Shown: positions 12,560 through 35,800 of the stretch, in pieces | Layout: the number at the start of each line of letters is the position of its first letter | Position numbering within the stretch: the stretch's first letter is position 1 | Source: an uncultured Clostridia bacterium | GTDB lineage: Bacteria; Bacillota; Clostridia; Christensenellales; UBA1242 | NCBI GenBank assembly: GCA_905235485.1 | Contig: CAJOLY010000011.1 | Location: 1 to 44,436, forward strand | Direction of reading: 5' to 3' | DNA length: 44,436 bases | Program-made: the position numbers and the translations under genes | Notes under the pieces: model-generated | The model's input: the letters and a program-made list of their open reading frames with translations, nothing else | The model's database searches: none | Told to the model about the DNA's origin: nothing

Positions 12560-12570
12560 CCTGTTTTTTT
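12543..12570 (+). terminator. rho-independent terminator of fba
   Basis: Stem aaacaggc/gcctgttt overlapping the stop codon, followed by T7. Confidence 0.7.
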
Positions 12571-13007
12571 GAAATAATTTATAAATTCCATACTAAATAA
12601 AATCTTTTTGGATCATATTCTTTTCCTCTTAATTTTTAAAAGGAGAATTAAATAACCTTTGTGGCTTCTTTGGTGGCGCCCTTAAAAATAAAAAAATCTA
12701 AACCAAACCAAAGTTCAATTTAGATTTAAAGTGGTGGAGCCACTGTCCCACAATTTAAAATTTCATTCAAACATGGACTGATATATTTGTTCACAACAAT
12801 ATAAGTTTGCCTTTTAAGTTTTTGATATTAAGAACTAATTGCTAATGATGTGATATAATAATGGATATGAATTATAAAAAAGAAAATGAGTGATTAATTT
12901 TACAAAAGGTATATGATAAAAGCATAATCATTGAGAACAGTGAAAACCCAGATACAGTAAAAAATAATCACAAAAATGAACAATATTAACTAAACTTTTA
13001 TTTTACG

Positions 13008-13038
13008 AAATGAAGGCAAAGTGATGTCTTCATTTTTA
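13008..13038 (+). terminator. orphan terminator-like hairpin in a non-coding gap
   Basis: Stem aaatgaag/cttcattt with a 12-nt loop, then a T-run. No ORF longer than 10 aa lies upstream. Confidence 0.35.
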
Positions 13039-13355
13039 TTGATTATATATAAAATATCTCTTTGTTTTGCTTTTTAGCATGATAAAAATATTAAATTTTG
13101 TTAGTAAAATTAAAGCAACCAAGTAAATATTAAAACATTCATAAATTTAATACAAAAACACAAGAAGTATGATATAATAAAAACGTTAGTAAAATAGATA
13201 TCATAAAAAATGATTTGTTGTAAAGATTGGTATCAAAATAACAAATGAATAAGAAATAATTGTTTTTTCATTAAATCATATATTAGATTGCAACATTATG
13301 TTATGATGGAAAAATTATAGTAACTTTAGAGTTTTAATATATAGGTAGGTTAATT

Positions 13356-13931
13356 ATGAGTAGAATTAGCAATACAATAATGATGTTAAAGATATTATCA
13401 TCTGGGAAAAAAATTACTGTCAACGAATTGGCTTATATGATTGAAGTAACTCCACGTATGATAAGGAAGTATAAAGATGACTTAGAAAAAGCAGGCATAT
13501 ATATTGAATCTAGCGTGGGTGCCAATGGTGGATATATATATAAAAATGAAGAAAAAATTGATTTTAATTTTTCTATTGTTGATTTGAAAATTCTTGAAGA
13601 CTTAAAATATCAATTGGAACAATATCGTTATTTTTCAAAAAAAAGATTGCTTGATTTGGAATCAATTATCGAAAAAATGCGAAGTGTCGTTATTATGCAA
13701 AAATACACGACAAGAAATGAAAACGATAAACATAAAAGTAATATTGATTTATTTGAACATGCCATAAATCAATCAAAGAATTTAAAGGTTATGTTAAATA
13801 GAAAAAAGGTTGTAACCATTAAGCCCTTACAACTTAATTTCTATAATGATATGGTATTTGTAACAGGTTATGTCATTGAATATCAGTCAATCAGAACTTA
13901 TTCATTATACGAAATCAAAAAAATTTTATAA
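13356..13931 (+). CDS. HTH (DeoR/HTH_11-type) transcriptional regulator with short C-terminal WYL-like domain
   Basis: N-terminus 'ILSSGKKITVNELAYMIEVTPRMIRKYKDDLEKAGIYIESSVGANGGY' matches the HTH_11 pattern. C-terminus 'VVTIKPLQLNFYNDMVFVTGYVIEYQSIRTYSLYEI' is WYL-like. SD AGGTAGG. Confidence 0.6.
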   Translation: MSRISNTIMMLKILSSGKKITVNELAYMIEVTPRMIRKYKDDLEKAGIYIESSVGANGGYIYKNEEKIDFNFSIVDLKILEDLKYQLEQYRYFSKKRLLDLESIIEKMRSVVIMQKYTTRNENDKHKSNIDLFEHAINQSKNLKVMLNRKKVVTIKPLQLNFYNDMVFVTGYVIEYQSIRTYSLYEIKKIL

Positions 13932-13957
13932 TAAGACCATATAGTTCCTTATTGCTA

Positions 13958-13966
13958 TGATATAAT
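13958..13966 (+). promoter_or_regulatory. extended -10 promoter (TGaTATAAT) ahead of the yhhQ-like gene
   Basis: Exact TGnTATAAT at 13958-13966, 22 nt upstream of the ATG at 13988 (SD AAAGGAG). Confidence 0.4.
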
Positions 13967-13987
13967 CATCGTGAAAGGAGAAAAGCT

Positions 13988-14698
13988 ATGAACATACTCT
14001 TTGCCGTTTTATACTTGGTCGTAACGTTTACTATAACTTTGCTTGCATACAAATTTTTTGGAAAAATAGGTTTATATATTTGGATATGTATTTCAATAAT
14101 TATTTCAAATATTCAATCTGTCAAGTTGATTGATATTTTTGGATTGACAACAGTTCTTGGAAATGTTGCATATTCTAATATTTATTTGGCAACTGATATA
14201 TTAAATGAAAAATATGGTAGCAAAAGTGCAAATAAAAGTGTTTTGTTTGGATTTTGCTCTATGGTGCTTTTTTCAGCTTTGATGCTCTTGGCTTTGTTGT
14301 TTATTCCAAATGTATATGATACTTCGCAGGAAAGTTTGCATAACATATTTATGATTGTGCCAAGAATAACTGCTGCAAGTTTGGCAGCATATTTGGCAAG
14401 TCAATTTTTGGATGTTTATATATTTAGTAAACTAAAACAAAAATATAATAAATTGTGGCTCAGTAATAACATAGGCACAATTGTCAGTCAAATTGTCGAT
14501 ACAATAATTTTTGTTACAATCGCATATATAGGGACAATGCCAATCAAAGAACTATTTATAACAATGGGCACAATATATGCATTGAAAGTTATTATTGCTT
14601 TGGCAGATACGGGATTTATATACATTTCAAAAAAAATTACGCCAAAAGAAATTGAAAACATAGTCGAAACTAAAAAAGAAGAAATAGAGGATATATAA
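13988..14698 (+). CDS. yhhQ: queuosine-precursor (7-deazapurine base) transporter, YhhQ/VUT family
   Basis: 'ATDILNEKYGSKSANKSVLFGF' and 'ASLAAYLASQFLDVYIFSKLK...NIGTIVSQIVDTIIFVTIAYIG' match the YhhQ (DUF165) signatures. About 6 TM helices. Confidence 0.85.
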   Translation: MNILFAVLYLVVTFTITLLAYKFFGKIGLYIWICISIIISNIQSVKLIDIFGLTTVLGNVAYSNIYLATDILNEKYGSKSANKSVLFGFCSMVLFSALMLLALLFIPNVYDTSQESLHNIFMIVPRITAASLAAYLASQFLDVYIFSKLKQKYNKLWLSNNIGTIVSQIVDTIIFVTIAYIGTMPIKELFITMGTIYALKVIIALADTGFIYISKKITPKEIENIVETKKEEIEDI

Positions 14699-14700
14699 TT

Positions 14701-15609
14701 ATGGATATTATTTATGAAGGCAAAGAATCAGAAGTTGTTATTCCTTATTTTGGACAACAATCCAGATTTTTTAAATTTTTTTATGACGTTATTTCCAAAT
14801 ACATAAAAAAAGGCGATATCTATGCAGAAACTAATTCTGGTTCAAATGGAAATGCTTATATGTTTGCTAAAAATGGTTATCGAGTAATAATAAACGACAA
14901 AGGTGAATATAGCAACTGCATTGCCAATGCAATTTTGTCTGATGACGACAAAGTATTAAGCACCCGCGATGACATTGCGACATTTCTCAAAGAATACTCT
15001 CATTCATATTTGGACCGTGCAAGTGTATTTGCAGCACTAATGGATGAATTGGGTTATAACTACAATATACCACAAAAATTTGATGAAAAGACCTTGCAAA
15101 CTATAAAAAAATATAAATCACATCTTTCACAATTAAATAAAAAGAATATAAGAGCTTACAAAATTTTTAATGATGACTTGTTTGATTATTTAAAAAAACT
15201 AGAAGAAGAAAATATTGTTGTTGATGCAATGTTTATGGATTTTGCTTGGCCATGGCGAGATGGTAGCAAAACTGAGGAATATGAAACGTCAGCAAATATT
15301 TTAACAAATGTTTTTGCTGATGGATATAACAAAGTCGATATTTGGGACAAAACCAATGTGATTGAAAATGTTTTAAAAGCCGTAAGACAAGCACAAAAAG
15401 TATCAAAATATGTTTTTTTATCTAACCAAAGTTCTAATTTTCCAACACCAGAATTGCTTGAAGTCGCATTATTAAAAAATGGAATTCAATACATTGAAAG
15501 ACATACCATGCTAACTAATGCGACAAATGAAGATAATCTAAATAAATGTGATTTTTTTAGAGAATATCTTTATGTGATAGAAGGAGGTAATTTAAAAAAT
15601 GAATTATGA
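14701..15609 (+). CDS. D12-class (Dam-like) methyltransferase-fold protein with atypical catalytic motif
   Basis: Collinear with recalled E. coli Dam blocks. 'PYFGQQSR' matches KWAGGKYP. 'KKGDIYAETNSGSNG' matches PKGECLVEPFVGAGS. 'IINDKGEYSNCIANAI' matches ILADINSDLISLYNIV. 'LGYNYN' matches YGYNG. 'VDAMFMDFAWPW' matches VVYCDPPYAPL. 'VFLSNQSS' matches VLISNHDT. DPPY is replaced by DFAW. Confidence 0.5.
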   Translation: MDIIYEGKESEVVIPYFGQQSRFFKFFYDVISKYIKKGDIYAETNSGSNGNAYMFAKNGYRVIINDKGEYSNCIANAILSDDDKVLSTRDDIATFLKEYSHSYLDRASVFAALMDELGYNYNIPQKFDEKTLQTIKKYKSHLSQLNKKNIRAYKIFNDDLFDYLKKLEEENIVVDAMFMDFAWPWRDGSKTEEYETSANILTNVFADGYNKVDIWDKTNVIENVLKAVRQAQKVSKYVFLSNQSSNFPTPELLEVALLKNGIQYIERHTMLTNATNEDNLNKCDFFREYLYVIEGGNLKNEL

Positions 15610-16087
15610 CAAAAAAATATTGACGTGGGATGATGTCTATAAGAACATTCAAAATCTAGTCAATGAAATTAATAATGACAAAATTAAAATTGACCTATTA
15701 TTACCAGTAATCAAGGGTGGATTTATTCCAGCAATGTTTATTGCAAAACACATTGGAATTGACAAATTTTCATTCATTCAGGCCAGAAGGTCTAAATCAA
15801 ATTTGTCAAATTGTGATTTTGGTGATGCCAAATTTTTGGGATTGCTGAATAAGGATGCAATTAAAGGTGTAAATGTTTTGATTGTTGAAGATATTGTTTA
15901 TACAGGTGATACTTTAAAACTTGTATTAAATGAAATAAAAAAATATAGCCCAAAAAATATATATATTTGTTCAATGTATAGCTTTTATACTAGCAATGAC
16001 CTTGGTCATATATACAAAGGTAATTCTAATCCTAATGAAGTCAATTGGATTGTATTTCCATGGGATTATGAACATCCATATAAATAG
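15599..16087 (+). CDS. purine phosphoribosyltransferase, Gpt (xanthine-guanine PRT)-like
   Basis: 'ILTWDDV', 'VIKGGFIPAMFIAKHIGI', PRPP loop 'VLIVEDIVYTGDTL' and 'NWIVFPWD' parallel recalled E. coli Gpt blocks. SD GAAGGAGG. Overlaps the previous gene by 11 nt. Confidence 0.8.
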   Translation: MNYDKKILTWDDVYKNIQNLVNEINNDKIKIDLLLPVIKGGFIPAMFIAKHIGIDKFSFIQARRSKSNLSNCDFGDAKFLGLLNKDAIKGVNVLIVEDIVYTGDTLKLVLNEIKKYSPKNIYICSMYSFYTSNDLGHIYKGNSNPNEVNWIVFPWDYEHPYK

Positions 16088-16098
16088 GAGAAAAATGT

Positions 16099-16938
16099 AT
16101 GGTAAATGGTTTTAGATTTATTATTGGAAACGGATGCAATTATAATTGTTTTTATTGCCATCATGAAGGAGTATTTGAAACAAAACCTGATGAAAATTTT
16201 CAAAATAAGATCGATATTATTAAATCTTATTGTGACAAGCACAAAGTTTATTATCTATCAATAACTGGTGGTGAACCATTCTTATATTGGGAGAAAGTTA
16301 AATATATTCTTGATAGATTTAATTCAAAACAATTTTCATTTTCAATCAATACCAACGCAACACTTTTGAAAAACTATATTGATATTTTAGATACTTATAA
16401 ATGTAAAATTGAATTACATATAAATGTTTCTTCACTTAACGAAAATACGCATGCAAAAATTTCTGGTAGTAATAAATTTGAACAAATGATAAATACTTTA
16501 GAAAGTTTGAAAAAACATAATTTAAAAATTTGTCTCAATACTATTCTTTTGAAAGGAATAAATCAGAATGAGGTATTGCAATTTTTAGAGTATTGTGATA
16601 AACTTAATTATACATTGAGGTTATTGCAATTTTTGCCGAATAACATTTATCAAAAATCTTTGGTCATAAGTGAAAAAGATTTGCCACAGATTTTGCCAAA
16701 TGTTGAAGTAGGAGAAATAAGCTCATATGGAATTTTCAAGTGTAAATATCAAAATTATCACTTTGAGTTTGTGAAAAATTTATGTTGTGATAAATTGTGT
16801 GAACGTTGTAAAGAAAATACATATATTCATTTTACACCAGAGTTAAACATTAAAAATTGCATGTTAAGTTCAGAAATTATTTATCCAGATTATACAAATT
16901 TAATCTCATTTGAAAAAATAATTAGGGGGATATCGTGA
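16099..16938 (+). CDS. radical SAM enzyme, MoaA-like (N-terminal CX3CX2C plus C-terminal Cys-rich auxiliary-cluster motif)
   Basis: 'GNGCNYNCFYCHHEG', 'SITGGEPFL' and C-terminal 'CCDKLCERCKENTYIHFTPELNIKNCML'. The C-terminal block parallels the MoaA 'CxxCnRlRLTadGkLkxCL' motif. Confidence 0.7.
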   Translation: MVNGFRFIIGNGCNYNCFYCHHEGVFETKPDENFQNKIDIIKSYCDKHKVYYLSITGGEPFLYWEKVKYILDRFNSKQFSFSINTNATLLKNYIDILDTYKCKIELHINVSSLNENTHAKISGSNKFEQMINTLESLKKHNLKICLNTILLKGINQNEVLQFLEYCDKLNYTLRLLQFLPNNIYQKSLVISEKDLPQILPNVEVGEISSYGIFKCKYQNYHFEFVKNLCCDKLCERCKENTYIHFTPELNIKNCMLSSEIIYPDYTNLISFEKIIRGIS

Positions 16939-17612
16939 ATATCGTTTTTGAAGGAATTGATGCTTCTGGGAAGACAACTATAATAAATAAATTGAAGGAA
17001 ATTTTTGACGCCAATAATGATAATAGTCAAATTATTGCGGATATTAAAGAACCAACACCACTTTTGCCAGTTTTTGAAAGTATGTTTAGCAGCAATTTTT
17101 TGGAATTAAATGAGAATTTTAAAACATCAATATATCAAACATTATTGTTTGCTTGTAGTCATTTTTATGTCCAAGAGAAAAATAAAAACAACAAACATAT
17201 AACAATTTATGATAGAGATATTTTTACTCTTTTGTCATATCAAAAAGAATTGTTAAGACAAGAATATCCAAACAACTATAATGATTTCTATAAGCCATTC
17301 AAAGAAATGTTAATGTTTGAAAATAAACAGATTGATATGTTAGTCTATGTGAGTATTCCGCTTGAAGAAAATATCCAAAGAAAAATAAATCGCGATGGAT
17401 TATTATTTTCTGAAGAAGAAAAAGAAAAACTGGCTATATTTAAAAAAAATATGGAAGCTGAAATTAAGTGTTATACCGAACAACACCCAAATACCATTGT
17501 TTTGAATTTGGATGGACGAGAAAATCCTTTAACAAATTGTAAAAAAATTATAGAATGCCTACAAGAAAACAAAATAAAAAAATCAGGAAATGATAATGAA
17601 GAAGTACTTTAA
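16935..17612 (+). CDS. thymidylate-kinase-family nucleoside monophosphate kinase
   Basis: P-loop 'FEGIDASGKTT', 'IYDRDIFTLLSYQ' (Tmk DR..S..AYQ block), LID-like 'QRKINRDG'. GTG start after AGGGGGA, with a 4-nt overlap with the rSAM gene. Confidence 0.75.
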   Translation: MNIVFEGIDASGKTTIINKLKEIFDANNDNSQIIADIKEPTPLLPVFESMFSSNFLELNENFKTSIYQTLLFACSHFYVQEKNKNNKHITIYDRDIFTLLSYQKELLRQEYPNNYNDFYKPFKEMLMFENKQIDMLVYVSIPLEENIQRKINRDGLLFSEEEKEKLAIFKKNMEAEIKCYTEQHPNTIVLNLDGRENPLTNCKKIIECLQENKIKKSGNDNEEVL

Positions 17613-18813
17613 TAATTTTCATCTATCTTTAAAAGAAAAACATAACATCATTAAAACTTACAAAAATGGTGATGTTAGTTGTTTTTTTAGTCCAACAATA
17701 GCAAAAGTTGAAAAATTATTTGCGGATTATGTCGATATGCCGTATGTAATTGCAACAACAAATTGTACTTCTGCTTTATATTTAGCATATAAATCACTGC
17801 AAATTACTGATAAAAATTCAAACATAATCATTCCAAACTTTACACACCCCTCAACAGCATTTGCTTTAAAAATGGCAAATATCAAAATGAAGCTTTGCGA
17901 TTGTAAACAGAATAGCTATAATTTAAATACAAAAATGCTTGAACGCCTTATTGACCAAAACACCAAAGCGGTTGTTTTTGTTCATATGCGTGGCTACATT
18001 CAAAACATTTTAGACGTTCAAAAAATCTGCAAAAAACATAATATTGTTTTAATTGAAGATGTCGCACAAGGACTTGGTATTGAAATTAATGGGAAAAAAG
18101 CTGGAAGTTTTGGTGAAATATCTTGTTTTAGTTTCAACGATTCGAAAACAATTCAATTAGGCGAAGGTGGAATGTGTTGTTTTAGGAATAAATCACAAGA
18201 AGAATATGCTAGAAAAATTATACATGAAGGTGAATACTCAATAGATACACAAAAAAGCACTACTATTTGTAATGGAAGTGCTTACAGCGTAATTTTTAAT
18301 AAATTTGATTATATCCCAGATGGCTTCAATTTTAGGCCATTTCCACCAATCTTCTCAATATTGGAGAATAGATTGAAAAATATAAACAAATTGAGAATTA
18401 AGAAAAATAAAATTAGAGATATTTATAAAAATAATATAGATAAAAATTTATTCAAATCATTTGATACATGTGAAAATGATTTACCAATATGCTTTCCAAT
18501 GTTGACAGATAATGTTGATGTAGTTAAAAATGTTTTGCTTAACTTTTATCACTCTGGCTATCCAATAGGCAAAATGGCTTATCCAACATTAAATAAAATA
18601 AAATCATTTGAGAACTGCTGTTTAAATTTTGATGACAATTTTGAAAATAGTGAAAATCTTTATGACAGATTGCTATTTTTGCCTTTGTCACAAAACATAA
18701 CAAAAAAAATGGCAACCAAACTTACAAGGTTTTTGAATAACTCGATTAAAAAATCCACCAAGGTATTGCCTGATGGTGAAATTGATAATTTTGACGGATT
18801 TTATTTATGGTAA
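17596..18813 (+). CDS. DegT/DnrJ/EryC1/StrS-family PLP-dependent aminotransferase
   Basis: PLP-lysine block 'SFNDSKTIQLGEGG', 'LIEDVAQGLG', 'ATTNCTSALYLA'. ATG 17596 is preferred (AGGA 7 nt upstream) over the track start at 17590. Confidence 0.8.
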   Translation: MKKYFNNFHLSLKEKHNIIKTYKNGDVSCFFSPTIAKVEKLFADYVDMPYVIATTNCTSALYLAYKSLQITDKNSNIIIPNFTHPSTAFALKMANIKMKLCDCKQNSYNLNTKMLERLIDQNTKAVVFVHMRGYIQNILDVQKICKKHNIVLIEDVAQGLGIEINGKKAGSFGEISCFSFNDSKTIQLGEGGMCCFRNKSQEEYARKIIHEGEYSIDTQKSTTICNGSAYSVIFNKFDYIPDGFNFRPFPPIFSILENRLKNINKLRIKKNKIRDIYKNNIDKNLFKSFDTCENDLPICFPMLTDNVDVVKNVLLNFYHSGYPIGKMAYPTLNKIKSFENCCLNFDDNFENSENLYDRLLFLPLSQNITKKMATKLTRFLNNSIKKSTKVLPDGEIDNFDGFYLW

Positions 18814-18866
18814 TTAGTTGACATTATATAAAAAAATTATTAGTATGATTATAGGAGGAGATATTT

Positions 18867-19418
18867 ATGAAAATAACATATGTTACAGGTAATAAATATA
18901 AAATTGAATTAGCGCAAAGAATTTTAGGACCATTAGGTGTAGAAGTTATTCAAAAGAAAATTTATTGTCCAGAAATTCAAAATGATGACATCGCTGAAGT
19001 GTCAAAATATTCTGCAAAATTTGCGGCAAATGAATTAAGTTGTCCAGTAATAAAAAACGATAGTGGATTAGTTATTGACGGACTTAAAGGTTTTCCTGGC
19101 CCATATACATCATACATAGAAGACACAATAACAGAAGATGGAATTCTTAAATTGATGCAAGACATAGAAGATAGAAACGCTCATTTTGTTGAAGTTATTT
19201 CCTATTGTGAACCAAACAAAGAACCCATTTCTTTTATTTCAAATACATATGGTTCAATTGCAAAAGAAAAAAGAGGAGAATTTGGTTGGAGCTTTGACAG
19301 GATATTTGTCCCAAAGAATGAAATTAGAACTTTAGCAGAAATGCCGGATGATGAAAGATGGAAATTTTGGACAGATGATGCATATATTCAATTAAAGGAC
19401 TATTTGGAAAAAATTTAG
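18867..19418 (+). CDS. Ham1/RdgB/ITPase-family non-canonical NTP pyrophosphatase
   Basis: 'YVTGNKYKIELA', 'NDSGLVIDGLKGFPGPYTS', 'FGWSFDRIFVP...TLAEM'. SD AGGAGGAG. Confidence 0.75.
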   Translation: MKITYVTGNKYKIELAQRILGPLGVEVIQKKIYCPEIQNDDIAEVSKYSAKFAANELSCPVIKNDSGLVIDGLKGFPGPYTSYIEDTITEDGILKLMQDIEDRNAHFVEVISYCEPNKEPISFISNTYGSIAKEKRGEFGWSFDRIFVPKNEIRTLAEMPDDERWKFWTDDAYIQLKDYLEKI

Positions 19419-19505
19419 TTTTTTAAAAATAATGAAATTATAAAATATGAAAAAGATTTATTGCATAGTTTTTAGCTATGCAATATTTTGTATTAAAATA
19501 TCAAT

Positions 19506-19855: not shown

Positions 19856-20700
19856 TTAATATGAATGAGTTCGATATTGAATCGGGCTCATTTTTAGTTT
19901 TAAAACTATCCTTTCGTTATTGTAATAATATATATATATATATTCTTTCAGTTTGTCAATGAAAGTGTTAACACTTTCAAACTTTTCGCCGAGAAACATT
20001 TCTGTTTTTAGTCTTCCAAAGAAGTTTTCCATTATACTGTTATCTTAGCAATTTCCTTTTCTTGACATACTTTGTATTATGTTATGTTCTTTGAGTAATC
20101 GTTGATATTCTTTCATTTGATATTGCCAACCTTGGTCTGAGTGTAATATTGGTTTTGAGTTTGCTGGTAGAATATCAAAAAGATTGTTTAACATTTCTTT
20201 TGTCTGAGCAAAATTAGGACTTAAAGAGATTGAGTATGAAAGTATTTCATTGTTATACATATCTAGTATTGGTGAAAGATATACTTTGTCATCACAGACA
20301 TTAAATTCAGTAACATCAGTTGTGAGTTTTTGAAATGGCTTGACTGCTTTAAAATCTCTCGCAATGATATTTGGAGCGATTTTACCAACTTCACCTTGTA
20401 TGACTTGTATTTACTCTTTTTTTGTTTACCTTTAATGTTAAGTGATTTCATTAGTTTCAGAACTGTTTTATGATTGATTGTATATCCAAGTTTTCTTAAT
20501 TCTAACTCAATTCGTCTATATCCATATATACCTTTATTTTCAATATGTATTTGCTCAATTTTTTCTTTTATCTCAGCATATTTGTCTATTTTACTTTTAG
20601 ACAAATGGTAGTAGAAATTACTTCTAGGAATATCTGAAAGTTTAAGGAGTAAATCAAGCGGATATATTTGCCTTAACTCAGAAACAATTTTTACTTTCTC
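19856..20700 (-). pseudogene. IS3-family transposase OrfB (DDE), disrupted
   Basis: Three collinear fragments reassemble a typical OrfB: 'YGYRRI', 'LTTDVTEF', 'LHSDQGWQY', 'SMSRKGNC*DNSIMENFFG', 'YYYNNERI'. There is one frameshift near 20400 and an in-frame TAA where the family has a conserved codon (CYDN/CLDN). Confidence 0.85.
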
Positions 20701-21086
20701 TTTTTCTTTTGTTCTTCCGCACGAATTAAGGCATCTAATTTTTTTAAGTAATCATTCTCAGCTCTTAGATACAAATTTTCTTCCTTCAATCTTTGATATT
20801 CAGCAATCAAATCATCTTTAACTTCTTTGTTTATTTTTCTTTTTCTACCTTTGTTTGGATTATCCATTTTTTTTGTTCTTCCACGCCGTTCTCTGTAGAA
20901 ACCAGCTTCTCCTTCTTCTAAGAATATGCGTTCCCACAATTTGATTTTACTAGTATCATTGTATTCTTTGCCCGGTTCAGAGTTAAAAAATTTTCTGCAA
21001 GCTTCATTATATCCTAAATTGTTATTACGCATATCTAGTATACACGATATTTTGAACTCTGGACTATTTTTTTTATTTTTTCTCAT
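20691..21086 (-). CDS. IS3-family transposase OrfA (HTH plus leucine-zipper region)
   Basis: 131 aa with a basic/coiled C-terminus. An A-rich AAGAAAAAG run lies just before the stop, where the -1 frame continues into OrfB. Confidence 0.8.
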   Translation of the reverse strand: MRKNKKNSPEFKISCILDMRNNNLGYNEACRKFFNSEPGKEYNDTSKIKLWERIFLEEGEAGFYRERRGRTKKMDNPNKGRKRKINKEVKDDLIAEYQRLKEENLYLRAENDYLKKLDALIRAEEQKKKRK

Positions 21087-21180
21087 TAAAAATGCACCTC
21101 CAAAAGTGTCTAACTTTTGGGGTGCACTTCAAATGGTTGTGAAAACAAAAAAATAGTCCAGTGGACTATTTTTAATTTAC

Positions 21181-21263
21181 TGGTGGGGACGGTGGGACTT
21201 GAACCCACACTCTTGCGAACACGCCCCTTAAACGTGCGCGTCTGCCAGTTCCGCCACATCCCC
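21181..21263 (-). tRNA. tRNA-Leu, type II (long variable arm), anticodon reads AAG; CCA encoded
   Basis: Sense strand starts ggggatg-tg-gcggaactggcagacgc-g. The anticodon arm is cacgt-TTAAGGG-gcgtg. The rest is ttcgcaagagtg-tgggttcaagtcccac-cgtcccc-a-cca. The 7-nt loop has U33, anticodon A-A-G and G37. Confidence 0.8.
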
Positions 21264-32822: not shown

Positions 32823-35800
32823 TTAAAACTTGGGTCTGTTGAAAATAATTGCTTTTCGCTTGTTTGTTTTCTTTTTCTTTTTACGTATAACAATAAATAA
32901 TGTTGTAATCAATCCAACAGTTATCGCACTCGCAGCAATTATTATGATAAGTATATAATTATTTTCAACTTGGATGAATACTGCATAGAATTGTCTATCA
33001 CCAACTGAGCCTTTTCTTATCACAACATCTTTTTGTGGATCATCGCCTGCGTTTTCAATCCAACCATTGAATTGATATCTTTCTTTTTGAGGCTCTGGCA
33101 AAGTGAAGTCATCTGTGTTGATATCATATTCAATAATCTCTGTTTTGGTATCAATTTGCAAAACTATTTTGTAAGTTTCAATTTCAAAATTTGCAACGAG
33201 AATTCCATCGCCAACGATATTTGAAATTGTGGTTGTTAGTTCATTCTCTCTATTTATATAAAATGCATTGTTTTCATTTGTCCAACCAACAAAATTATAA
33301 CCTCTTTCTGCATTTGCTTCAAAATTATATGTGCTTAAATTTCCATATAAAACTTTAACATTATCTAATGAAGTTATTGAACCCATTTGATCATCATTTG
33401 CCTGAGCTGTTATTGAGAAAATTTGCGTAACAATCAAATTAACTGTTACATCACTATTTATACTTATAGTATTACCGTTAATACTTGTAATTTTGTTTGT
33501 GCTAATATTACTGGCATTCAAAACAAGATTATAGCTATATTGATTATCTTCAATTTCAGCATATAAAGAAATTGTTGTACCATAATCAAATGTGAAAGCC
33601 ACTGAGTTGTTATGTTCATTTAATGTGCCTGTTTGATCATTTGCATAAACACTGATTGAAGGTATGTTTGTTGCATTGTAAGTCACCGAAACAATATATT
33701 GATAAGTTTTCAAAATATTTCTATATTGAGCTGTATATGTAACATTACCTGTCACGGCACTTAAATTTGGACTCCAGTTTAAAAACTCATAGTTATATTG
33801 ACTATCACTTGCCCGCGTTGGGGTTTCCCTATCATATGTTGGAAAAACTCCATAATATTCTGTTGTTGTTGACAAACGTGAGTTATCATAGTCATTCCAA
33901 GTAACTTGATATGTGTTTCTTGTGTAATAATATTCAACGATTGTGCTACCATCAGCCTTAATTTGTACTGTTTGAGTGTTTGGCGATGTGAAACCTTCAT
34001 AGTTGTTTACACTAGGTGAAACATAATCATCAGTCGTTCCAGTCAATTCTTGTATATCATTAACAATCAAGGTGTATGATTCGCCATTAGTATCCATATG
34101 ATAGTGATAAACTTTATAGATTGTATTTGTACTAGGCAACCAATTTGCAACAAATTGTTTATCTCCATATGAGCCAACCAAAATCTTAAAGCTTTTCTCT
34201 GGAGTAGATCCATTTGAGCCTGTCCATCCATCAAAATCATAACCAATTTTTGTTGGATTTAACAAGGTGATTTCATCAGTAACGGTGTATTCTGTTGGAT
34301 TTGTGCCGTCGACTTCACCACCATTCAAATCATAAGTGATTGTGTATGTATTTTTTGTAACGATCGCTGAAATTATAACTTCTTCATTTGGCATAACAAA
34401 ACTTGTGTCTGATTCAGTTTCATCATTATTCCATTTTTCCCAAGTATAGCCATCCAAAACGATTGCTTTCAATGTTACAGTCTCACCATAGAATATATTT
34501 CCGCTTTGTGTGCTCTGTGATAAGTCAACACCTTCAACAGCATTTAATGTGAATTGATGCTTGTTTCGTGTGTATTCATATCTTACAATTGTTGTACCAT
34601 TTGGATCAATTGTTGTGGTTTGTGTGCTTGGAGCAGTGAAACCAATATATGTTTTTACATTTGGAGTTATCGTTCCATTTGAAACACCTGTAAGATTATC
34701 AGTGTCAATCAAAGTGAAACTTTCTCCATCCAAATTCATTTGATAATGCTCAACTTTATAAGGAGTGTCCCCTTTTTCTGTCCACTTTGCATAAAGTGTT
34801 ATTGAATTTTGACTAAGTGCCGGCATTTTTATCCATTGAATTTGACTGCCTGTGCCATTGTTATCAATTTCATCATCAAACCAACCTTCAAAGTTATATC
34901 CATTTCTTGAAAGTACTGGAAGTGATATTTCTTCATCAAAGTCTGCAACAAGGTCAGCACAATTTTCTCCGCCATTTGAGTCAAAAACAATCGTATAAGA
35001 ATTTATTTTCCAAACTGCATAAAATGTTATATCTTGTCCATTGAATCTTTCATATAAAGAATTTACATCATCTTTTGACAAGTTTTGTTCATCATCAAAT
35101 TCAATATTCCCATTTTCAGTTGTTGACCAACCGTCAAAGGTATAGCCTTCACGAGTGAATGTATTTGTTGGTATAGCAAAAGATTCATCATATGTGATAG
35201 TTAAGCTATCCATTATTCCTTCACCTTCATTTGCATCAAACAAAATATCAAATGAATTAGTTGAACTATTTGCAGTTATTATTATATCTTCACTTACTGA
35301 TGATGAATAACTTATTTTTGTATTCTTTGCAAAGTTGTTTTCAATTATTAAATTTGTTGAAGAAGTATTCCAACTTGTGAAAGTATAACCTTTATTCTCA
35401 ATAGCAAAAATTTCAACATTGTTCTCACTGTTTATAATCAAATATGATGATGCATCAGCAATTTTTGCTGATAATCCCGTCTGAGCAGTTATGTTAATAT
35501 TAGAAGCATATTGCTCATCACTTGAAGCTTCGTCACTACTTTCACAATTTGAGACATTACTGCTAATTGCTGTGACCTTGAATGTGTAAACACCAGCCCC
35601 AGATGTTTTTATTTCACTTGTAAAATCATATTGATATGGAGTATCTGCAACTTCTTTTGTAGTTCCCAAAATTTCGCCATCTTTGTAAAGTTGAATATTA
35701 TATGATATTTCAATTCCGTTTACTTCATTTGAAGGTATCCAGCTAACAACACCAACATTCCAGCTCAAATTTGCTGGTGTGGATAATTTTGCCTTTTCTA

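What the first reader, a model, noticed from the sequence alone, without database searches (positions are those of the whole stretch)
13356..19418. Eight-gene WYL-fronted operon that reads like a base-to-modified-nucleotide pathway (candidate undescribed system)
Seen in sequence: eight plus-strand ORFs, each with its own SD. Junctions are tight: +56, +2, -11, +11, -4, -17 and +53 nt. In order they encode an HTH-WYL regulator, a YhhQ/VUT base transporter and a Dam-like methyltransferase fold with DFAW instead of DPPY. Then come a Gpt-like purine phosphoribosyltransferase, a MoaA-like radical SAM enzyme and a Tmk-family kinase. A DegT-family PLP aminotransferase and a Ham1/RdgB NTP pyrophosphatase complete the set. 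The usual partners of each enzyme are missing from the window. There is no tgt/dpdA or queCDEF, no moaC/moaB/moeA, and no sugar nucleotidyltransferase, 4,6-dehydratase or glycosyltransferase. Established knowledge: YhhQ imports preQ0/preQ1. Purine-type PRTs load 7-deazapurine bases onto PRPP in toyocamycin and tubercidin biosynthesis. MoaA abstracts the ribose 3'-H of GTP and binds the purine on its C-terminal cluster. The puromycin aminonucleoside branch uses 3'-oxidation of ATP (Pur10), a DegT-family transaminase (Pur4), an NTP pyrophosphatase (Pur7) and N-methylation. Nucleotide kinases accompany prokaryotic viperins, and WYL regulators (BrxR/CapW type) gate defence operons. Inference: the operon imports a purine-like base, ribosylates and phosphorylates it, oxidises and transaminates the ribose, N-methylates it, and trims the NTP. 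The product could be an amino-deoxy, chain-terminator-like nucleotide. I do not recognise this gene combination as a named system. A role in phage defence, antibiosis or nucleic-acid modification is open.
Basis: partly seen in the sequence, partly recalled or inferred. Interest (0 to 1): 0.9.

Follow-up and report, generated by a model that had tools for sequence, protein, structure and literature searches.

The report
Undescribed 7-deazaguanine nucleotide-making operon
This eight-gene operon, conserved in uncultured gut and rumen bacteria, appears to take up a queuosine-type base (a 7-deazaguanine), build it into a nucleotide and chemically remodel it; I found no description of such a pathway, and it may make a toxic or antiviral nucleotide.

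Summary
Eight co-oriented, tightly packed ORFs lie at 13356-19418, with the predicted families. The same gene set recurs in at least 14 independent metagenomic or MAG loci from low-GC Bacillota. Three of these have exactly the window's gene order.

The invariant core is purine PRT, then a MoaA-like radical SAM enzyme, then a Tmk-like kinase, plus a special Ham1. An HTH-WYL regulator and a base-supply module are usually present. PRT and rSAM are fused in one locus.

The key new result concerns the base supply. In sister loci the YhhQ/Vut_1 importer is joined by QueC, or replaced outright by FolE-QueD-QueE-Gat-QueC. The base is therefore a 7-deazaguanine (preQ0-like).

ORF3 is a divergent Dam-like methyltransferase fold (DFAW motif). 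It is fused to the transporter in one locus. It also sits inside phage dpdA/queCDE operons, so it is tied to the base and not to a sugar amine.

DegT occurs only in the window's rSAM clade (5 of 5 loci against 0 of 9). ORF3 and DegT are therefore accessory modules.

No PADLOC, NCBIfam, phage or plasmid match names the system, and ten literature searches found no description.

Best reading: an inducible pathway to a modified, here probably amino-sugar, 7-deazaguanine nucleotide, with Ham1 as a safeguard. The biological role (antiviral, antibiotic or nucleic-acid modification) is unresolved.

The parts
13356..13931 (+). ORF1: HTH_11 + WYL transcription regulator (191 aa)
   Evidence: Pfam HTH_11 5.5e-8 and WYL 0.026. 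PADLOC WYL profile 3.4e-16 over residues 8-190. Orthologues at 33-41% identity lie next to the cluster in 11 of 14 loci.
13932..13987 (+). Intergenic spacer with a candidate internal promoter (TGnTATAAT ending at 13966) and the SD of ORF2; also the site of a weak preQ1-II-like hit
   Evidence: TATAAT at 13961. A TATAAT box at the same relative place in L088 and L097. The preQ1-II hit scores 22.9 bits against a gathering score of 47 and is not conserved.
13988..14698 (+). ORF2: YhhQ/Vut_1-family 7-deazaguanine (queuosine precursor) transporter
   Evidence: Vut_1 3e-40; TIGR00697 178.6 bits (cut-off 51). Replaced by FolE-QueD-QueE-Gat-QueC in L095/L096.
14701..15609 (+). ORF3: divergent Dam-like SAM-methyltransferase-fold protein (motifs ETNSGS, ND, DFAWPWR, SNQSSN)
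   Evidence: Model pLDDT 87. Foldseek finds only class I methyltransferases, TM 0.36-0.46. The family is small and unnamed. Fused to Vut_1 in P0127/L092. Lies inside phage dpdA/que operons.
15599..16087 (+). ORF4: purine-type (6-oxopurine-like) phosphoribosyltransferase
   Evidence: Pribosyltran 6.4e-19; HGPRT/XPRT models score below cut-off. Best PDB relatives are Sulfolobus GpT-2 and the Pyrococcus purine PRT. Fused to the rSAM in P0029/L004.
16099..16938 (+). ORF5: MoaA-like radical SAM enzyme of a new family (CX3CX2C plus four invariant C-terminal Cys)
   Evidence: The family forms 38 clusters at E<1e-46; the next hits are MoaA at 1e-19. Fold TM to MoaA is 0.76; to viperins 0.52-0.67.
16935..17612 (+). 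ORF6: Tmk/dNK-family nucleotide kinase
   Evidence: Thymidylate_kin 1.6e-8, dNK 3.8e-7, TIGR00041 42 bits (cut-off 83). Always directly follows the rSAM gene.
17590..18813 (+). ORF7: DegT/DnrJ/EryC1-family PLP aminotransferase (accessory, clade-specific)
   Evidence: DegT 7.6e-58. The catalytic Lys aligns with perosamine synthetase. Present in 5 of 5 loci of the window's rSAM clade and 0 of 9 of the other clade (against 10, 11, 27, 29-31, 34, 35, 71).
18818..18846 (+). Promoter-like site (TTGACA-17-TAGTAT) in the gap before Ham1
   Evidence: Consensus scan, 10 of 12 matches; sequence shown. Consensus match only, with no test of function.
18867..19418 (+). ORF8: cluster-specific Ham1/ITPase-family NTP pyrophosphatase with a remodelled base pocket
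   Evidence: Ham1p_like 2.8e-34; NF011396 181 bits (cut-off 203). Present in 14 of 14 loci at 54-77% identity. The SHR motif is replaced by a conserved RWKFW, and GFGYDP by GWS[YF]D[RK].
19459..19485 (+). Terminator-like hairpin closing the operon

Best explanation
The operon is a dedicated pathway that builds a chemically modified 7-deazaguanine nucleotide. I found no description of it.

Shown by comparative genomics: the base is a 7-deazaguanine. In the window it is imported by the YhhQ-family transporter (ORF2). In sister loci it is made on site by QueC, or by FolE-QueD-QueE-Gat-QueC.

Inferred from family chemistry:
- ORF3, a Dam-like SAM-methyltransferase fold, modifies the base. An exocyclic N-methylation is the likeliest reaction.
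- The purine PRT (ORF4) joins the base to PRPP and gives the 5'-monophosphate, as ToyH and TubE do.
- The MoaA-like radical SAM enzyme (ORF5) abstracts a ribose hydrogen. By analogy with MoaA this is H3'. It oxidises or dehydrates the sugar.
- In the window's clade the resulting keto-sugar is transaminated by DegT (ORF7) to an amino-deoxy sugar.
- The Tmk-like kinase (ORF6), with cellular Ndk, raises the product to the di- and triphosphate.
- The cluster-specific Ham1 (ORF8) hydrolyses the analogue triphosphate back to the monophosphate. It has its own promoter-like site here and is coupled to the regulator gene elsewhere. It would serve as a safeguard or for dosage control.
- The HTH-WYL protein (ORF1) keeps the biosynthetic genes under inducible control.

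Most likely role: inducible production of a toxic, polymerase-directed nucleotide analogue used against phages or other invaders. This is viperin-like logic with a different base and a different radical enzyme.

How sure I am of each layer: about 0.85 that this is a dedicated pathway to a modified 7-deazaguanine nucleotide; about 0.4 that the window's product carries an amino sugar; about 0.35-0.4 that the role is antiviral or anti-invader.
For: Co-conservation:
- PRT-rSAM-kinase plus Ham1 occur in 14 of 14 loci, with overlapping or abutting genes.
- L097, L098 and L099 have the window's exact gene order.
- PRT and rSAM are fused in P0029.

The base is a 7-deazaguanine:
- ORF2 passes the TIGR00697 cut-off.
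- L089 has QueC in the operon.
- L095/L096 replace Vut_1 with Gat-QueC, QueD, QueE and FolE. QueC and QueE pass their equivalog cut-offs.
- ORF3-family genes sit inside phage queE-gatqueC-X-queD-folE-dpdA operons and in a phage carrying QueC and QueD.

The rSAM is nucleotide-directed:
- MoaA is the best match by sequence and by fold, and viperins come next.
- MoaA R17 and R192 are conserved as R6 and R174, while K69 and R71 are not.
- A second cluster motif is present, with four invariant Cys.

DegT is a true aminotransferase (Lys present), and its presence follows the rSAM clade strictly.

Ham1 keeps its catalytic motifs but has lost the SHR base-recognition motif, which points to a new substrate. 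It also has separate transcription signals and overlaps the regulator gene in L004, L089 and L093.

Hints of a defence role:
- ORF1 matches a WYL regulator profile at 3.4e-16.
- Some loci sit beside GmrSD, OLD-TOPRIM/UvrD, SieB, TIR, DUF2357, integrases or IS elements. In the window, IS3 remnants and tRNA-Leu lie downstream.
- Accessory content is variable.

No named system matches, and nothing turned up in ten literature searches.
Against: - No biochemical step has been tested. The hydrogen abstracted, the phosphorylation state the rSAM uses and the product are all inferred.
- PRT-rSAM fusion and the fixed order PRT-rSAM-kinase could mean the rSAM acts on the monophosphate. Loss of MoaA's K69 and R71 fits that.
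- Nine loci lack DegT, so the rSAM product must be functional without amination.
- Many loci sit among housekeeping genes: ackA/metG in L093, tig/murD/serS in L008, pgk/tpi/smpB in L088, and gap/fba in the window. The position next to ackA recurs in four loci. That looks like a stable lineage trait and not a defence island.
- No member was found in viral or plasmid collections.
- Ham1 could simply be a biosynthetic step, as Pur7 is in puromycin synthesis.
- WYL domains are not exclusive to defence.
Confidence: 0.5

Rival explanations
1. A biosynthetic gene cluster for a secreted 7-deazapurine nucleoside antibiotic, toyocamycin- or tubercidin-like, used in competition between gut or rumen microbes. 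Ham1, NUDIX, NT5C and the histidine phosphatase would trim the nucleotide to the exported nucleoside, and Vut_1 might serve in both directions.
For: The first steps are the same as in the toy and tub clusters: a preQ0 or CDG core plus a PF00156 PRT (bioRxiv 10.64898/2026.04.15.718813). L095 carries the full preQ0 core next to the PRT. Tailoring genes vary between loci: DegT, NodU-like carbamoyltransferase, methyltransferase, GNAT and phosphatases. This is typical of natural-product clusters. In puromycin synthesis a pyrophosphatase detoxifies the amino-NTP intermediate (my own knowledge).
Against: No dedicated exporter and no phosphatase lie in the window. One or two nucleotide kinases are conserved, which is unusual for pathways that end in a nucleoside. 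The hosts appear to have small genomes (a contig of up to 1.25 Mb). The regulator is of WYL type, not LuxR or SARP type.
Confidence: 0.2
2. A route that supplies modified 7-deazaguanine (deoxy)nucleotides for incorporation into the cell's own nucleic acid. This could be pre-replicative DNA modification or an RNA modification that does not use TGT. The rSAM would perform a 2'-deoxygenation or another sugar edit, and Ham1 would police the pool.
For: The accessory genes belong to 'deoxy' families: a second Tmk/dNK-like kinase and an NT5C 5'(3')-deoxyribonucleotidase. The ORF3 family is Dam-like and occurs in phage DNA-modification operons with DpdA. The locus is stable beside ackA in a whole lineage. 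NTP pyrophosphatases accompany other nucleotide-level DNA modification pathways, such as MazZ and DatZ in Z-genome phages (my own knowledge).
Against: No DpdA/TGT, polymerase or restriction partner is present in any of the 14 loci. A WYL-gated, patchily distributed operon with swappable tailoring genes fits a constitutive genome or tRNA modification poorly. Cui et al. 2023 (PMC10516641) conclude that all known 7-deazaguanine DNA modification is post-replicative and goes through DpdA.
Confidence: 0.15
3. Salvage or detoxification of environmental queuosine-related bases. Imported 7-deazaguanines would be converted to nucleotides and degraded or recycled, and no bioactive product would be made.
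For: YhhQ-family importers are salvage transporters. Ham1, NUDIX and NT5C are house-cleaning enzyme families.
Against: In L095/L096 the transporter is replaced by complete de novo synthesis of the base. That makes no sense for salvage or detoxification. A radical SAM enzyme, an aminotransferase and a carbamoyltransferase are anabolic tailoring enzymes.
Confidence: 0.07
4. Accidental adjacency of housekeeping genes (moaA, tmk, gpt, rdgB and a sugar aminotransferase).
For: Each protein belongs to a common housekeeping family.
Against: The cluster recurs in at least 14 loci with translational coupling and gene fusions. All enzymes score below their equivalog cut-offs: MoaA 101 vs 325, Tmk 42 vs 83, XPRT 48 vs 138, HGPRT 50 vs 150. 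The rSAM, ORF3 and Ham1 form distinct subfamilies.
Confidence: 0.01

Closest known systems
Toyocamycin/sangivamycin (toy) and tubercidin (tub) 7-deazapurine nucleoside gene clusters of Streptomyces
   Same: A 7-deazaguanine base (preQ0 or CDG), made by FolE/QueD/QueE(/QueC), is loaded onto PRPP by a PF00156 purine-type PRT. A pyrophosphatase or phosphatase trims the nucleotide. The L095-type sister locus has the same core next to the PRT.
   Different: None of the enzymes that convert guanine-type to adenine-type nucleotides is present (GMP reductase, adenylosuccinate synthetase and lyase, UbiD decarboxylase), and there is no HAD phosphatase. Instead the operon has a MoaA-like rSAM, a Tmk-like kinase, Ham1, a WYL regulator, a Dam-like methyltransferase fold, and DegT or a carbamoyltransferase. 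In the window the base is imported and not made. The hosts are uncultured low-GC Bacillota.
Prokaryotic viperins (pVips) with associated nucleotide kinases
   Same: A radical SAM enzyme of the NTP-acting MoaA/viperin structural neighbourhood (Foldseek TM 0.52-0.67 to viperins; pVip profile 2e-17) is paired with a nucleotide kinase. The proposed logic is also the same: make a polymerase-poisoning nucleotide.
   Different: The rSAM is not a viperin (NF038283 57 bits against a cut-off of 180). It is closer to MoaA and has a C-terminal second cluster motif. The substrate is a purpose-built 7-deazaguanine nucleotide, not CTP, UTP or GTP. PRT, Ham1, base supply and a regulator are added. Antiviral activity has not been shown.
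MoaA (GTP 3',8-cyclase) of molybdenum cofactor synthesis
   Same: It is the best match by sequence and by structure (1e-29; PDB 1tv7 at 1.4e-19; TM 0.76). The CX3CX2C motif, a C-terminal CX2CXnC cluster, and residues equivalent to R17 and R192 are all kept.
   Different: The score is far below the equivalog cut-off. Pfam finds no Mob_synth_C. K69, R71, R266 and R268 are not conserved. A fourth invariant Cys is present. No moaC, moaB or moeA lies nearby. The family is separate from MoaA, with a gap in E-value from 1e-46 to 1e-19.
Puromycin / 3'-amino-3'-deoxyadenosine aminonucleoside branch (Pur10, Pur4, Pur7, Pur5), and the BtrN/BtrS pair of butirosin synthesis
   Same: BtrN and BtrS are a precedent for a twitch-domain rSAM dehydrogenase feeding a DegT-type aminotransferase (my own knowledge). 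BtrS-type enzymes are among ORF7's best solved relatives (2c7t).
   Different: The oxidant would be an rSAM, not an NAD enzyme. The pyrophosphatase is a Ham1, not a Nudix. The base is 7-deazaguanine. There is no aminoacyl ligase. The methyltransferase-like ORF3 is tied to the base and not to the amine. None of this chemistry has been tested here.
Phage and bacterial Dpd-type 7-deazaguanine DNA modification (FolE/QueD/QueE/QueC or Gat-QueC plus DpdA)
   Same: The base-supply module is the same. L095's Gat-QueC is 43% identical to that of viral contigs L195/L196. The ORF3 family is shared, lying between gat-queC and queD and next to dpdA in L196.
   Different: No DpdA/TGT-like transglycosylase is present in the window or in any of the 14 loci. 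The base goes to a PRT, that is to a free nucleotide, and not into DNA by base exchange.
Ophion (OpnABC: rSAM + PHP + PRTase; bioRxiv 10.1101/2025.09.30.679545), and Kongming (KomB Ham1-like)
   Same: Ophion is the only validated defence system I found that pairs an rSAM with a PRTase. It is proposed to make transcription-halting nucleotides. The Ham1-like KomB of Kongming is a solved relative of ORF8 (1e-17).
   Different: Ophion has three genes, occurs in Gammaproteobacteria, and its PRTase is of the retron/ShosT clade (ORF4 hits that PADLOC profile only at 8e-4). It has a PHP domain and no kinase, Ham1, transporter or que genes. No Pseudomonas-type rSAM appeared among the listed ORF5 homologues. 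Kongming's KomA and KomC are absent.

Membership tests
Prokaryotic viperin (pVip) defence system | rSAM belongs to the viperin family (NCBIfam NF038283 cut-off 180 bits) | tested here: not met
   57.3 bits. MoaA is a better match by sequence and by fold.
Prokaryotic viperin (pVip) defence system | Product is a 3'-deoxy-3',4'-didehydro-NTP that protects against phage | not testable with these tools
   Needs enzymology and phage assays.
MoaA / molybdenum cofactor synthesis | Passes the MoaA equivalog model and carries Mob_synth_C | tested here: not met
   TIGR02668 101.5 vs 325; TIGR02666 82 vs 284; Pfam finds no PF06463.
MoaA / molybdenum cofactor synthesis | Genomic association with moaC/moaB/moeA/mog | tested here: not met
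   None in the annotated parts of the window or in any of the 14 loci.
Toyocamycin/tubercidin-type 7-deazapurine nucleoside cluster | 7-deazaguanine base supply plus a PF00156 PRT | tested here: met
   The window has a Vut_1 importer plus a PRT. L095 has FolE/QueD/QueE/Gat-QueC plus a PRT.
Toyocamycin/tubercidin-type 7-deazapurine nucleoside cluster | Guanine-to-adenine conversion enzymes (GMP reductase, AdSS/ASL or UbiD decarboxylase) and a HAD/Nudix phosphatase | tested here: not met
   Absent from the window and from all loci.
Dpd / phage 7-deazaguanine DNA modification | DpdA (TGT-like DNA transglycosylase) encoded with the que genes | tested here: not met
   No TGT-family hit in the operon or in sister loci. 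DpdA (phrog_887, 5.6e-94) is found only in the phage contig L196 that shares the ORF3 family.
Queuosine precursor salvage | YhhQ-family transporter | tested here: met
   TIGR00697 178.6 bits, above the cut-off of 51.
Queuosine precursor salvage | Linked tgt/queF/queA/queG, or regulation by a preQ1 riboswitch | tested here: not met
   No such genes in the loci. Only a sub-threshold preQ1-II hit, which is not conserved.
D12-class (Dam-like) N6-adenine DNA methyltransferase (for ORF3) | Pfam MethyltransfD12 match and a DPPY catalytic motif | tested here: not met
   No Pfam hit for ORF3, and only weak precomputed hits in a few homologues. The motif is DFAW. The fold is a class I methyltransferase, but TM is at most 0.46, including to Dam 2ore.
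Ophion defence system | Three genes: rSAM OpnA + PHP OpnB + retron/ShosT-clade PRTase OpnC | tested here: not met
   No PHP gene. The PRT is of purine-salvage type, with only an 8e-4 hit to the PADLOC retron PRTase profile.
WYL-regulated defence operons (BrxR/CapW type) | wHTH-WYL(-WCX) regulator upstream of a validated defence system | tested here: inconclusive
   An HTH+WYL regulator is present. At 191 aa it is shorter than BrxR or CapW, and the downstream operon is not a validated defence system.

The most novel reading that the evidence does not exclude
The operon is a new type of inducible chemical immunity. On infection, the WYL regulator releases synthesis of a 7-deazaguanine nucleoside triphosphate. 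A MoaA-like radical enzyme and DegT have converted its ribose to a 3'-amino (possibly 2',3'-dideoxy) sugar. The product is an obligate chain terminator that viral polymerases incorporate, while a co-evolved Ham1 keeps the host pool safe. This would be the first antiviral nucleotide made by a non-viperin radical SAM enzyme, and the first defensive use of free 7-deazaguanine nucleotides. As a by-product, the ORF3 family would be a new 7-deazaguanine-modifying enzyme shared with phage dpdA operons.
Probability: 0.2. Interest if true: 0.95.

Novelty: new variant of a known kind. Interest (0 to 1): 0.8.

Why it matters
Free 7-deazaguanine nucleotides are so far known only as intermediates of Streptomyces nucleoside antibiotics. 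Elsewhere 7-deazaguanines enter tRNA, DNA or proteins as bases. This work defines a conserved gene set that is common in metagenomes of uncultured low-GC Bacillota and commits such a base to a nucleotide, then remodels it.

The remodelling uses three enzyme families not previously described: a MoaA-like rSAM, a Dam-like 'DFAW' methyltransferase fold, and a Ham1 lacking the SHR motif.

Depending on its role, it could provide:
- a new natural nucleotide analogue, as a drug lead or polymerase probe;
- a new radical SAM sugar chemistry;
- a second example, besides viperin, of nucleotide-analogue immunity.

It also flags an unrecognised component of phage 7-deazaguanine DNA-modification operons.

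Tried and rejected
1. preQ1-II riboswitch before ORF2. The hit at 13906-13990 scores only 22.9 bits against a gathering score of 47. It is absent from orthologous loci, and the 'UAGUUCCUU' element is not conserved. I rejected it as probably chance.
2. Known defence systems. PADLOC gave only generic hits: WYL, pVip 2e-17, MTase_II, and P-loop matches.
3. Phage origin. There are no close homologues of the rSAM or of the window-type ORF3 in 50,697 phage records or in IMG/VR. The exceptions are one low-GC viral contig (L194) and the distant ORF3 relatives.
4. Plasmid carriage. Only true moaA genes were found in PLSDB.
5. Wide scans for the rSAM. Each returned only one full-length true member, L008 and L100 (the JGI scan also gave a 22-residue fragment, L162). 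No statistical test for defence-island enrichment was therefore possible.
6. Naming the organism. Cluster look-ups gave no names. The GAPDH search gave only uncultured relatives, and the nearest named were 'Clostridiales bacterium' MAGs at 73-78% identity. L008 is labelled 'Bacilli bacterium'.
7. ORF3 by sequence against the PDB: no hit.
8. Kinase against the PDB: no hit.
9. Whether the four C-terminal Cys of the rSAM form one cluster could not be checked, because model coordinates cannot be inspected.
10. The idea that ORF3 methylates the DegT-made amine was rejected from co-occurrence and fusion data.
11. Literature. Ten searches and five papers were read in part. None describes the gene set, including the 2026 genome-mining preprints on 7-deazapurine clusters and on the QueC family.

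Full report
OBSERVATION

Junctions are +56, +2, -11, +11, -4, -23 and +53. The sixth is -17 from the second ATG at 17596. Recognisable SD motifs lie before seven starts, and ORF7's is weak. A terminator-like hairpin at 19459-19485 follows the last gene. The operon has 27.5% G+C against 30.9% for the window.

The operon lies between housekeeping genes and mobile-element debris. Upstream are recR, dnaX, a sigma factor, an rRNA methylase, uppP, gap, pepS and fba. Downstream are IS3-family remnants at 20045-21086, then tRNA-Leu and ABC transporters.

Profile searches confirm seven of the eight family calls outright:
- HTH_11 plus WYL. WYL is only 0.026 in Pfam, but a PADLOC WYL-regulator profile scores 3.4e-16 over the whole protein.
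- Vut_1, the queuosine-precursor transporter (TIGR00697, 178.6 bits against a cut-off of 51).
- A purine-type PRT.
- A MoaA-like radical SAM enzyme in which Pfam finds no Mob_synth_C.
- A Tmk/dNK-like kinase.
- A DegT aminotransferase.
- Ham1.

ORF3 has no Pfam hit. Its AlphaFold model (pLDDT 87) has a class I SAM-methyltransferase fold with only distant structural relatives at TM 0.36-0.46: NNMT, PNMT, the cap N2-guanine methyltransferase TGS1, RlmO and Dam. Its invariant motifs ETNSGS, ND and D180-F-A-W correspond to methyltransferase motifs I, II and IV.

IS IT A SYSTEM?

Yes. The rSAM defines a sharply separated family. There are 38 clusters at E<1e-46 and 36-71% identity, all unnamed. The next hits are genuine MoaA at about 1e-19.

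I read the DNA around 13 family members and around ORF3 homologues. The same genes are clustered every time.

Two architectures appear.
- Type A, the window's: HTH-WYL, Vut_1, (ORF3), PRT, rSAM, kinase, DegT, Ham1. L097, L098 and L099 have exactly the window's order, at 53-56% rSAM identity. L088 lacks ORF3. L006 has only PRT, rSAM, kinase, DegT and Ham1, next to an integrase.
- Type B: (NUDIX), Ham1, HTH-WYL, PRT, rSAM, kinase, base supply, (ORF3), then sometimes a NodU-like carbamoyltransferase, a second Tmk-like kinase, an NT5C deoxyribonucleotidase, a histidine phosphatase or a GNAT. The loci are L001, L004, L008, L089, L090, L092, L093, L095 and L100.

Counts over the 14 loci:
- PRT-rSAM-kinase: 14 of 14, always in that order and usually overlapping.
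- Ham1: 14 of 14. It is the best conserved protein, at 54-77% identity.
- Regulator: 11 of 14.
- Base-supply module: 13 of 14.
- ORF3: 10 of 14, plus a remnant in L004.
- DegT: 5 of 5 in type A and 0 of 9 in type B.

Two gene fusions support functional coupling. PRT is fused to the rSAM in P0029/L004. Vut_1 is fused to ORF3 in P0127/L092.

At least a dozen further rSAM clusters share an identical longest-contig length with an ORF3 homologue, which suggests co-location.

All loci have 26-30% G+C. The named records are MAGs labelled 'Bacilli bacterium' (L008 from the water-deer reticulum; P0181). The window's GAPDH has only uncultured relatives. One ORF3 cluster alone, P0239, is indexed in 132 blocks of the assembly collection.

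WHAT IS THE BASE?

This is the main new result. In L089 a QueC gene sits in the operon between ORF3 and Vut_1; it scores 167 bits against the TIGR00364 cut-off of 150. In L095/L096 the transporter is absent. In its place stand Gat-QueC, QueD (PTPS), QueE and GTP cyclohydrolase I. QueE scores 262.7 bits against the TIGR03963 cut-off of 260.1, and Gat-QueC scores 164.5 bits against TIGR00364. An importer of queuosine precursors and the complete de novo route to preQ0-type bases are thus interchangeable modules. The substrate of the PRT is a 7-deazaguanine: preQ0 or a close derivative, possibly the G+ base where Gat-QueC is used.

ORF3 gives independent support. Its family is small, with 84 representatives at 50% identity among 1.8 billion proteins. 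Distant members at 32% identity keep all the motifs and lie in phage genomes.
- In IMG/VR contigs L195 and L196 (55% G+C) the gene is embedded, with overlapping stop and start codons, in the order queE, gat-queC, ORF3-like, queD, folE, dpdA (phrog_887, 5.6e-94), followed by DNA-polymerase genes.
- In L192 (49.5% G+C; terminase and portal genes present) it accompanies QueC and QueD.

ORF3 is therefore a 7-deazaguanine-pathway protein. It is not the methylase of a DegT-made sugar amine.

THE OTHER ENZYMES

The rSAM model (pLDDT 90) superposes best on MoaA (TM 0.76, E 3e-13) and next on viperins (TM 0.52-0.67). These are the two known rSAM types that act on the ribose of nucleoside triphosphates.

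In the HMMER alignment to S. aureus MoaA, R17 and R192 are conserved as the invariant R6 and R174, and T102/N104 correspond to the invariant N84/N86. K69 and R71 are not conserved. R17, R266 and R268 are the residues mutated in PDB entry 2fb2.

The C-terminal region keeps a CX2CX16C motif like MoaA's CX2CX13C. It has a fourth invariant Cys (C229), and residues other than MoaA's R266 and R268 follow the CX2C. From my own knowledge, MoaA's three-Cys cluster binds the guanine, whereas the fully ligated cluster of the twitch-domain dehydrogenase BtrN serves electron transfer. A four-Cys cluster would fit an oxidising or dehydrating role, but I could not inspect the model's geometry.

ORF7 has the Schiff-base lysine (SFNDSK aligned with FSFFGNK of perosamine synthetase). 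Among its best solved relatives is the 2-deoxy-scyllo-inosose aminotransferase that partners BtrN.

ORF8 keeps the Ham1 catalytic motifs. From my own knowledge, those motifs contact the purine base, so a changed substrate is likely.

Ham1 also appears to be transcribed apart from the biosynthetic genes. In the window a TTGACA-17-TAGTAT site fills the 53-nt gap before it. In type B loci Ham1 overlaps the regulator gene and is separated from the PRT by about 60 nt.

MECHANISM (best reading)

Shown: a dedicated, co-inherited gene set that commits a 7-deazaguanine to a PRT.

Inferred from family chemistry:
1. The base is imported.
2. ORF3 optionally modifies it. Its D-x-x-aromatic motif is that of exocyclic-amine methylases.
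3. The PRT phosphoribosylates it to the 5'-monophosphate, as ToyH and TubE do.
4. The rSAM remodels the sugar by radical chemistry.
5. In type A loci DegT transaminates the resulting carbonyl.
6. The Tmk-like kinase phosphorylates the product.
7. Ham1 hydrolyses the analogue triphosphate.

One chemically economical version runs as follows. H3' is abstracted, as in MoaA. The 2'-OH is lost, as in ribonucleotide reductases and by analogy with viperin's dehydration. This gives a 3'-keto-2'-deoxy nucleotide, which DegT converts to a 3'-amino-2',3'-dideoxy nucleotide. That version would also explain the 'deoxy'-family accessories of type B loci (a dNK/Tmk-like second kinase and NT5C). It is speculation.

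The order of the rSAM and kinase steps is open. The PRT-rSAM fusion and the loss of two of MoaA's triphosphate ligands favour a monophosphate substrate.

BIOLOGICAL ROLE

I rank inducible production of a toxic or antiviral nucleotide first, at about 0.35-0.4 on its own.

Reasons for:
- From my own knowledge, every characterised WYL regulator (PafBC, DriD, BrxR, CapW) responds to DNA damage or infection.
- The 'antidote' Ham1 is universally retained and separately expressed.
- The pairing of an rSAM with a kinase mirrors pVips.
- Accessory content is fluid.
- Some loci adjoin GmrSD and DUF4417 (L004), OLD-TOPRIM/UvrD and IS21 (L001), an integrase, SieB and TIR (L006), DUF2357 (L089), or IS and tRNA genes (the window).

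Reasons against:
- Many loci sit among housekeeping genes.
- The position next to ackA recurs in L001, L090, L093 and L095, which looks like vertical inheritance.
- I could not compute an enrichment statistic.

The rivals are a secreted 7-deazapurine nucleoside antibiotic (0.2), supply of modified (deoxy)nucleotides for the cell's own nucleic acids (0.15), salvage or detoxification (0.07, contradicted by the de novo variant), and chance adjacency (refuted).

COMPARISON AND NOVELTY

The first two steps match the toy and tub clusters (composition taken). Everything downstream differs. The system fails the tested membership criteria for pVip, MoaA/Moco, Dpd, queuosine salvage and Ophion (see the table). 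Ophion (rSAM + PHP + PRTase) is the nearest validated defence concept, but it has different composition, PRTase clade and taxa.

PADLOC, PHROGs and NCBIfam give no specific name. Phage, plasmid and viral collections lack the family. Ten full-text searches found no description. This includes the 2026 preprints that mined about 2 million genomes for 7-deazapurine clusters and surveyed the QueC family. Those searches cannot see subscription-only papers.

I rate it a new variant of a known kind, namely 7-deazapurine nucleotide and nucleoside biosynthesis. It has three enzyme subfamilies I found no description of and a realistic chance of being something categorically new.

The gene identities, the 'undescribed conserved system' and the base-to-nucleotide logic are right and are now sharpened to 7-deazaguanine. 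The fixed seven-gene core and the role given to the methyltransferase are not supported. The sugar amination, the chain-terminator idea and the defence role remain untested inferences.

Noticed in passing
L196:9989-10813 (also L195:7507-8331; L192:8001-8969): Distant ORF3-family genes (32% identity, all motifs kept) lie inside metagenomic phage 7-deazaguanine operons. The order in L196 is queE, gat-queC, ORF3-like, queD, folE, dpdA, then a DNA polymerase processivity factor and DNA polymerase. I found no description of such a component of phage dpd clusters. It has no match in 50,697 deposited phage genomes.
   Followed up: partly
window 13906-13990: A sub-threshold preQ1-II riboswitch hit (22.9 bits against a gathering score of 47) ends exactly at the start codon of the YhhQ-type transporter and includes its SD. 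It is not conserved in the orthologous loci L088, L097 and L098, so it is probably chance.
   Followed up: yes
window 12560-13355: About 800 bp upstream of the operon has no ORF of 60 aa or more. It holds a terminator-like hairpin at 13007-13036, an 11-nt direct repeat GTTAGTAAAAT at 13100 and 13185, and several AT-rich inverted repeats. No Rfam family matches. It could hold the regulator's operator, a small RNA, or a decayed gene.
   Followed up: partly
window 20045-21263: Three short minus-strand ORFs look like a broken IS3-family transposase (one has an HTH_21 hit). tRNA-Leu(AAG) at 21181-21263 follows directly. This fits an insertion hot spot beside the operon.
   Followed up: partly
L004:10001-11338 (P0029) and L092:5146-6723 (P0127): Natural gene fusions: PRT fused to the rSAM (445 aa), and the Vut_1 transporter fused to ORF3 (525 aa). 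L004 also keeps an 88-aa remnant of ORF3.
   Followed up: yes
window 18867-19418 and all 14 loci: The cluster's Ham1 proteins form a subfamily in which the canonical C-terminal SHR motif is replaced by a conserved RWKFW, and GFGYDP by GWS[YF]D[RK]. The catalytic motifs are kept.
   Followed up: partly
L001, L090, L093/L094, L095/L096: In four type B loci the cluster lies directly downstream of acetate kinase, with one unannotated ORF of 157-257 aa between them. L095 and L096 carry the identical cluster but different downstream DNA: an integrase/Mob element in L095 only.
   Followed up: no
L097:5892-6254 / L098:6890-7252: A rubredoxin gene directly follows Ham1 in two type A loci. It could be an electron donor for the radical SAM enzyme.
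   Followed up: no
L194:9980-10885: An IMG/VR 'viral' contig of 30.6% G+C carries a window-type ORF3 homologue (53% identity) at its very end. None of the other cluster genes lies in the 10 kb upstream. It is either a phage-borne copy or a misclassified bacterial contig.
   Followed up: no
window 32823-38336 and 40246-44313 (minus strand): Two very large ORFs (1837 and 1355 aa) are threonine/serine/asparagine-rich. The 1837-aa ORF starts with a hydrophobic, signal-like N-terminus, so these are probably surface proteins. They were not scanned against profile libraries.
   Followed up: no
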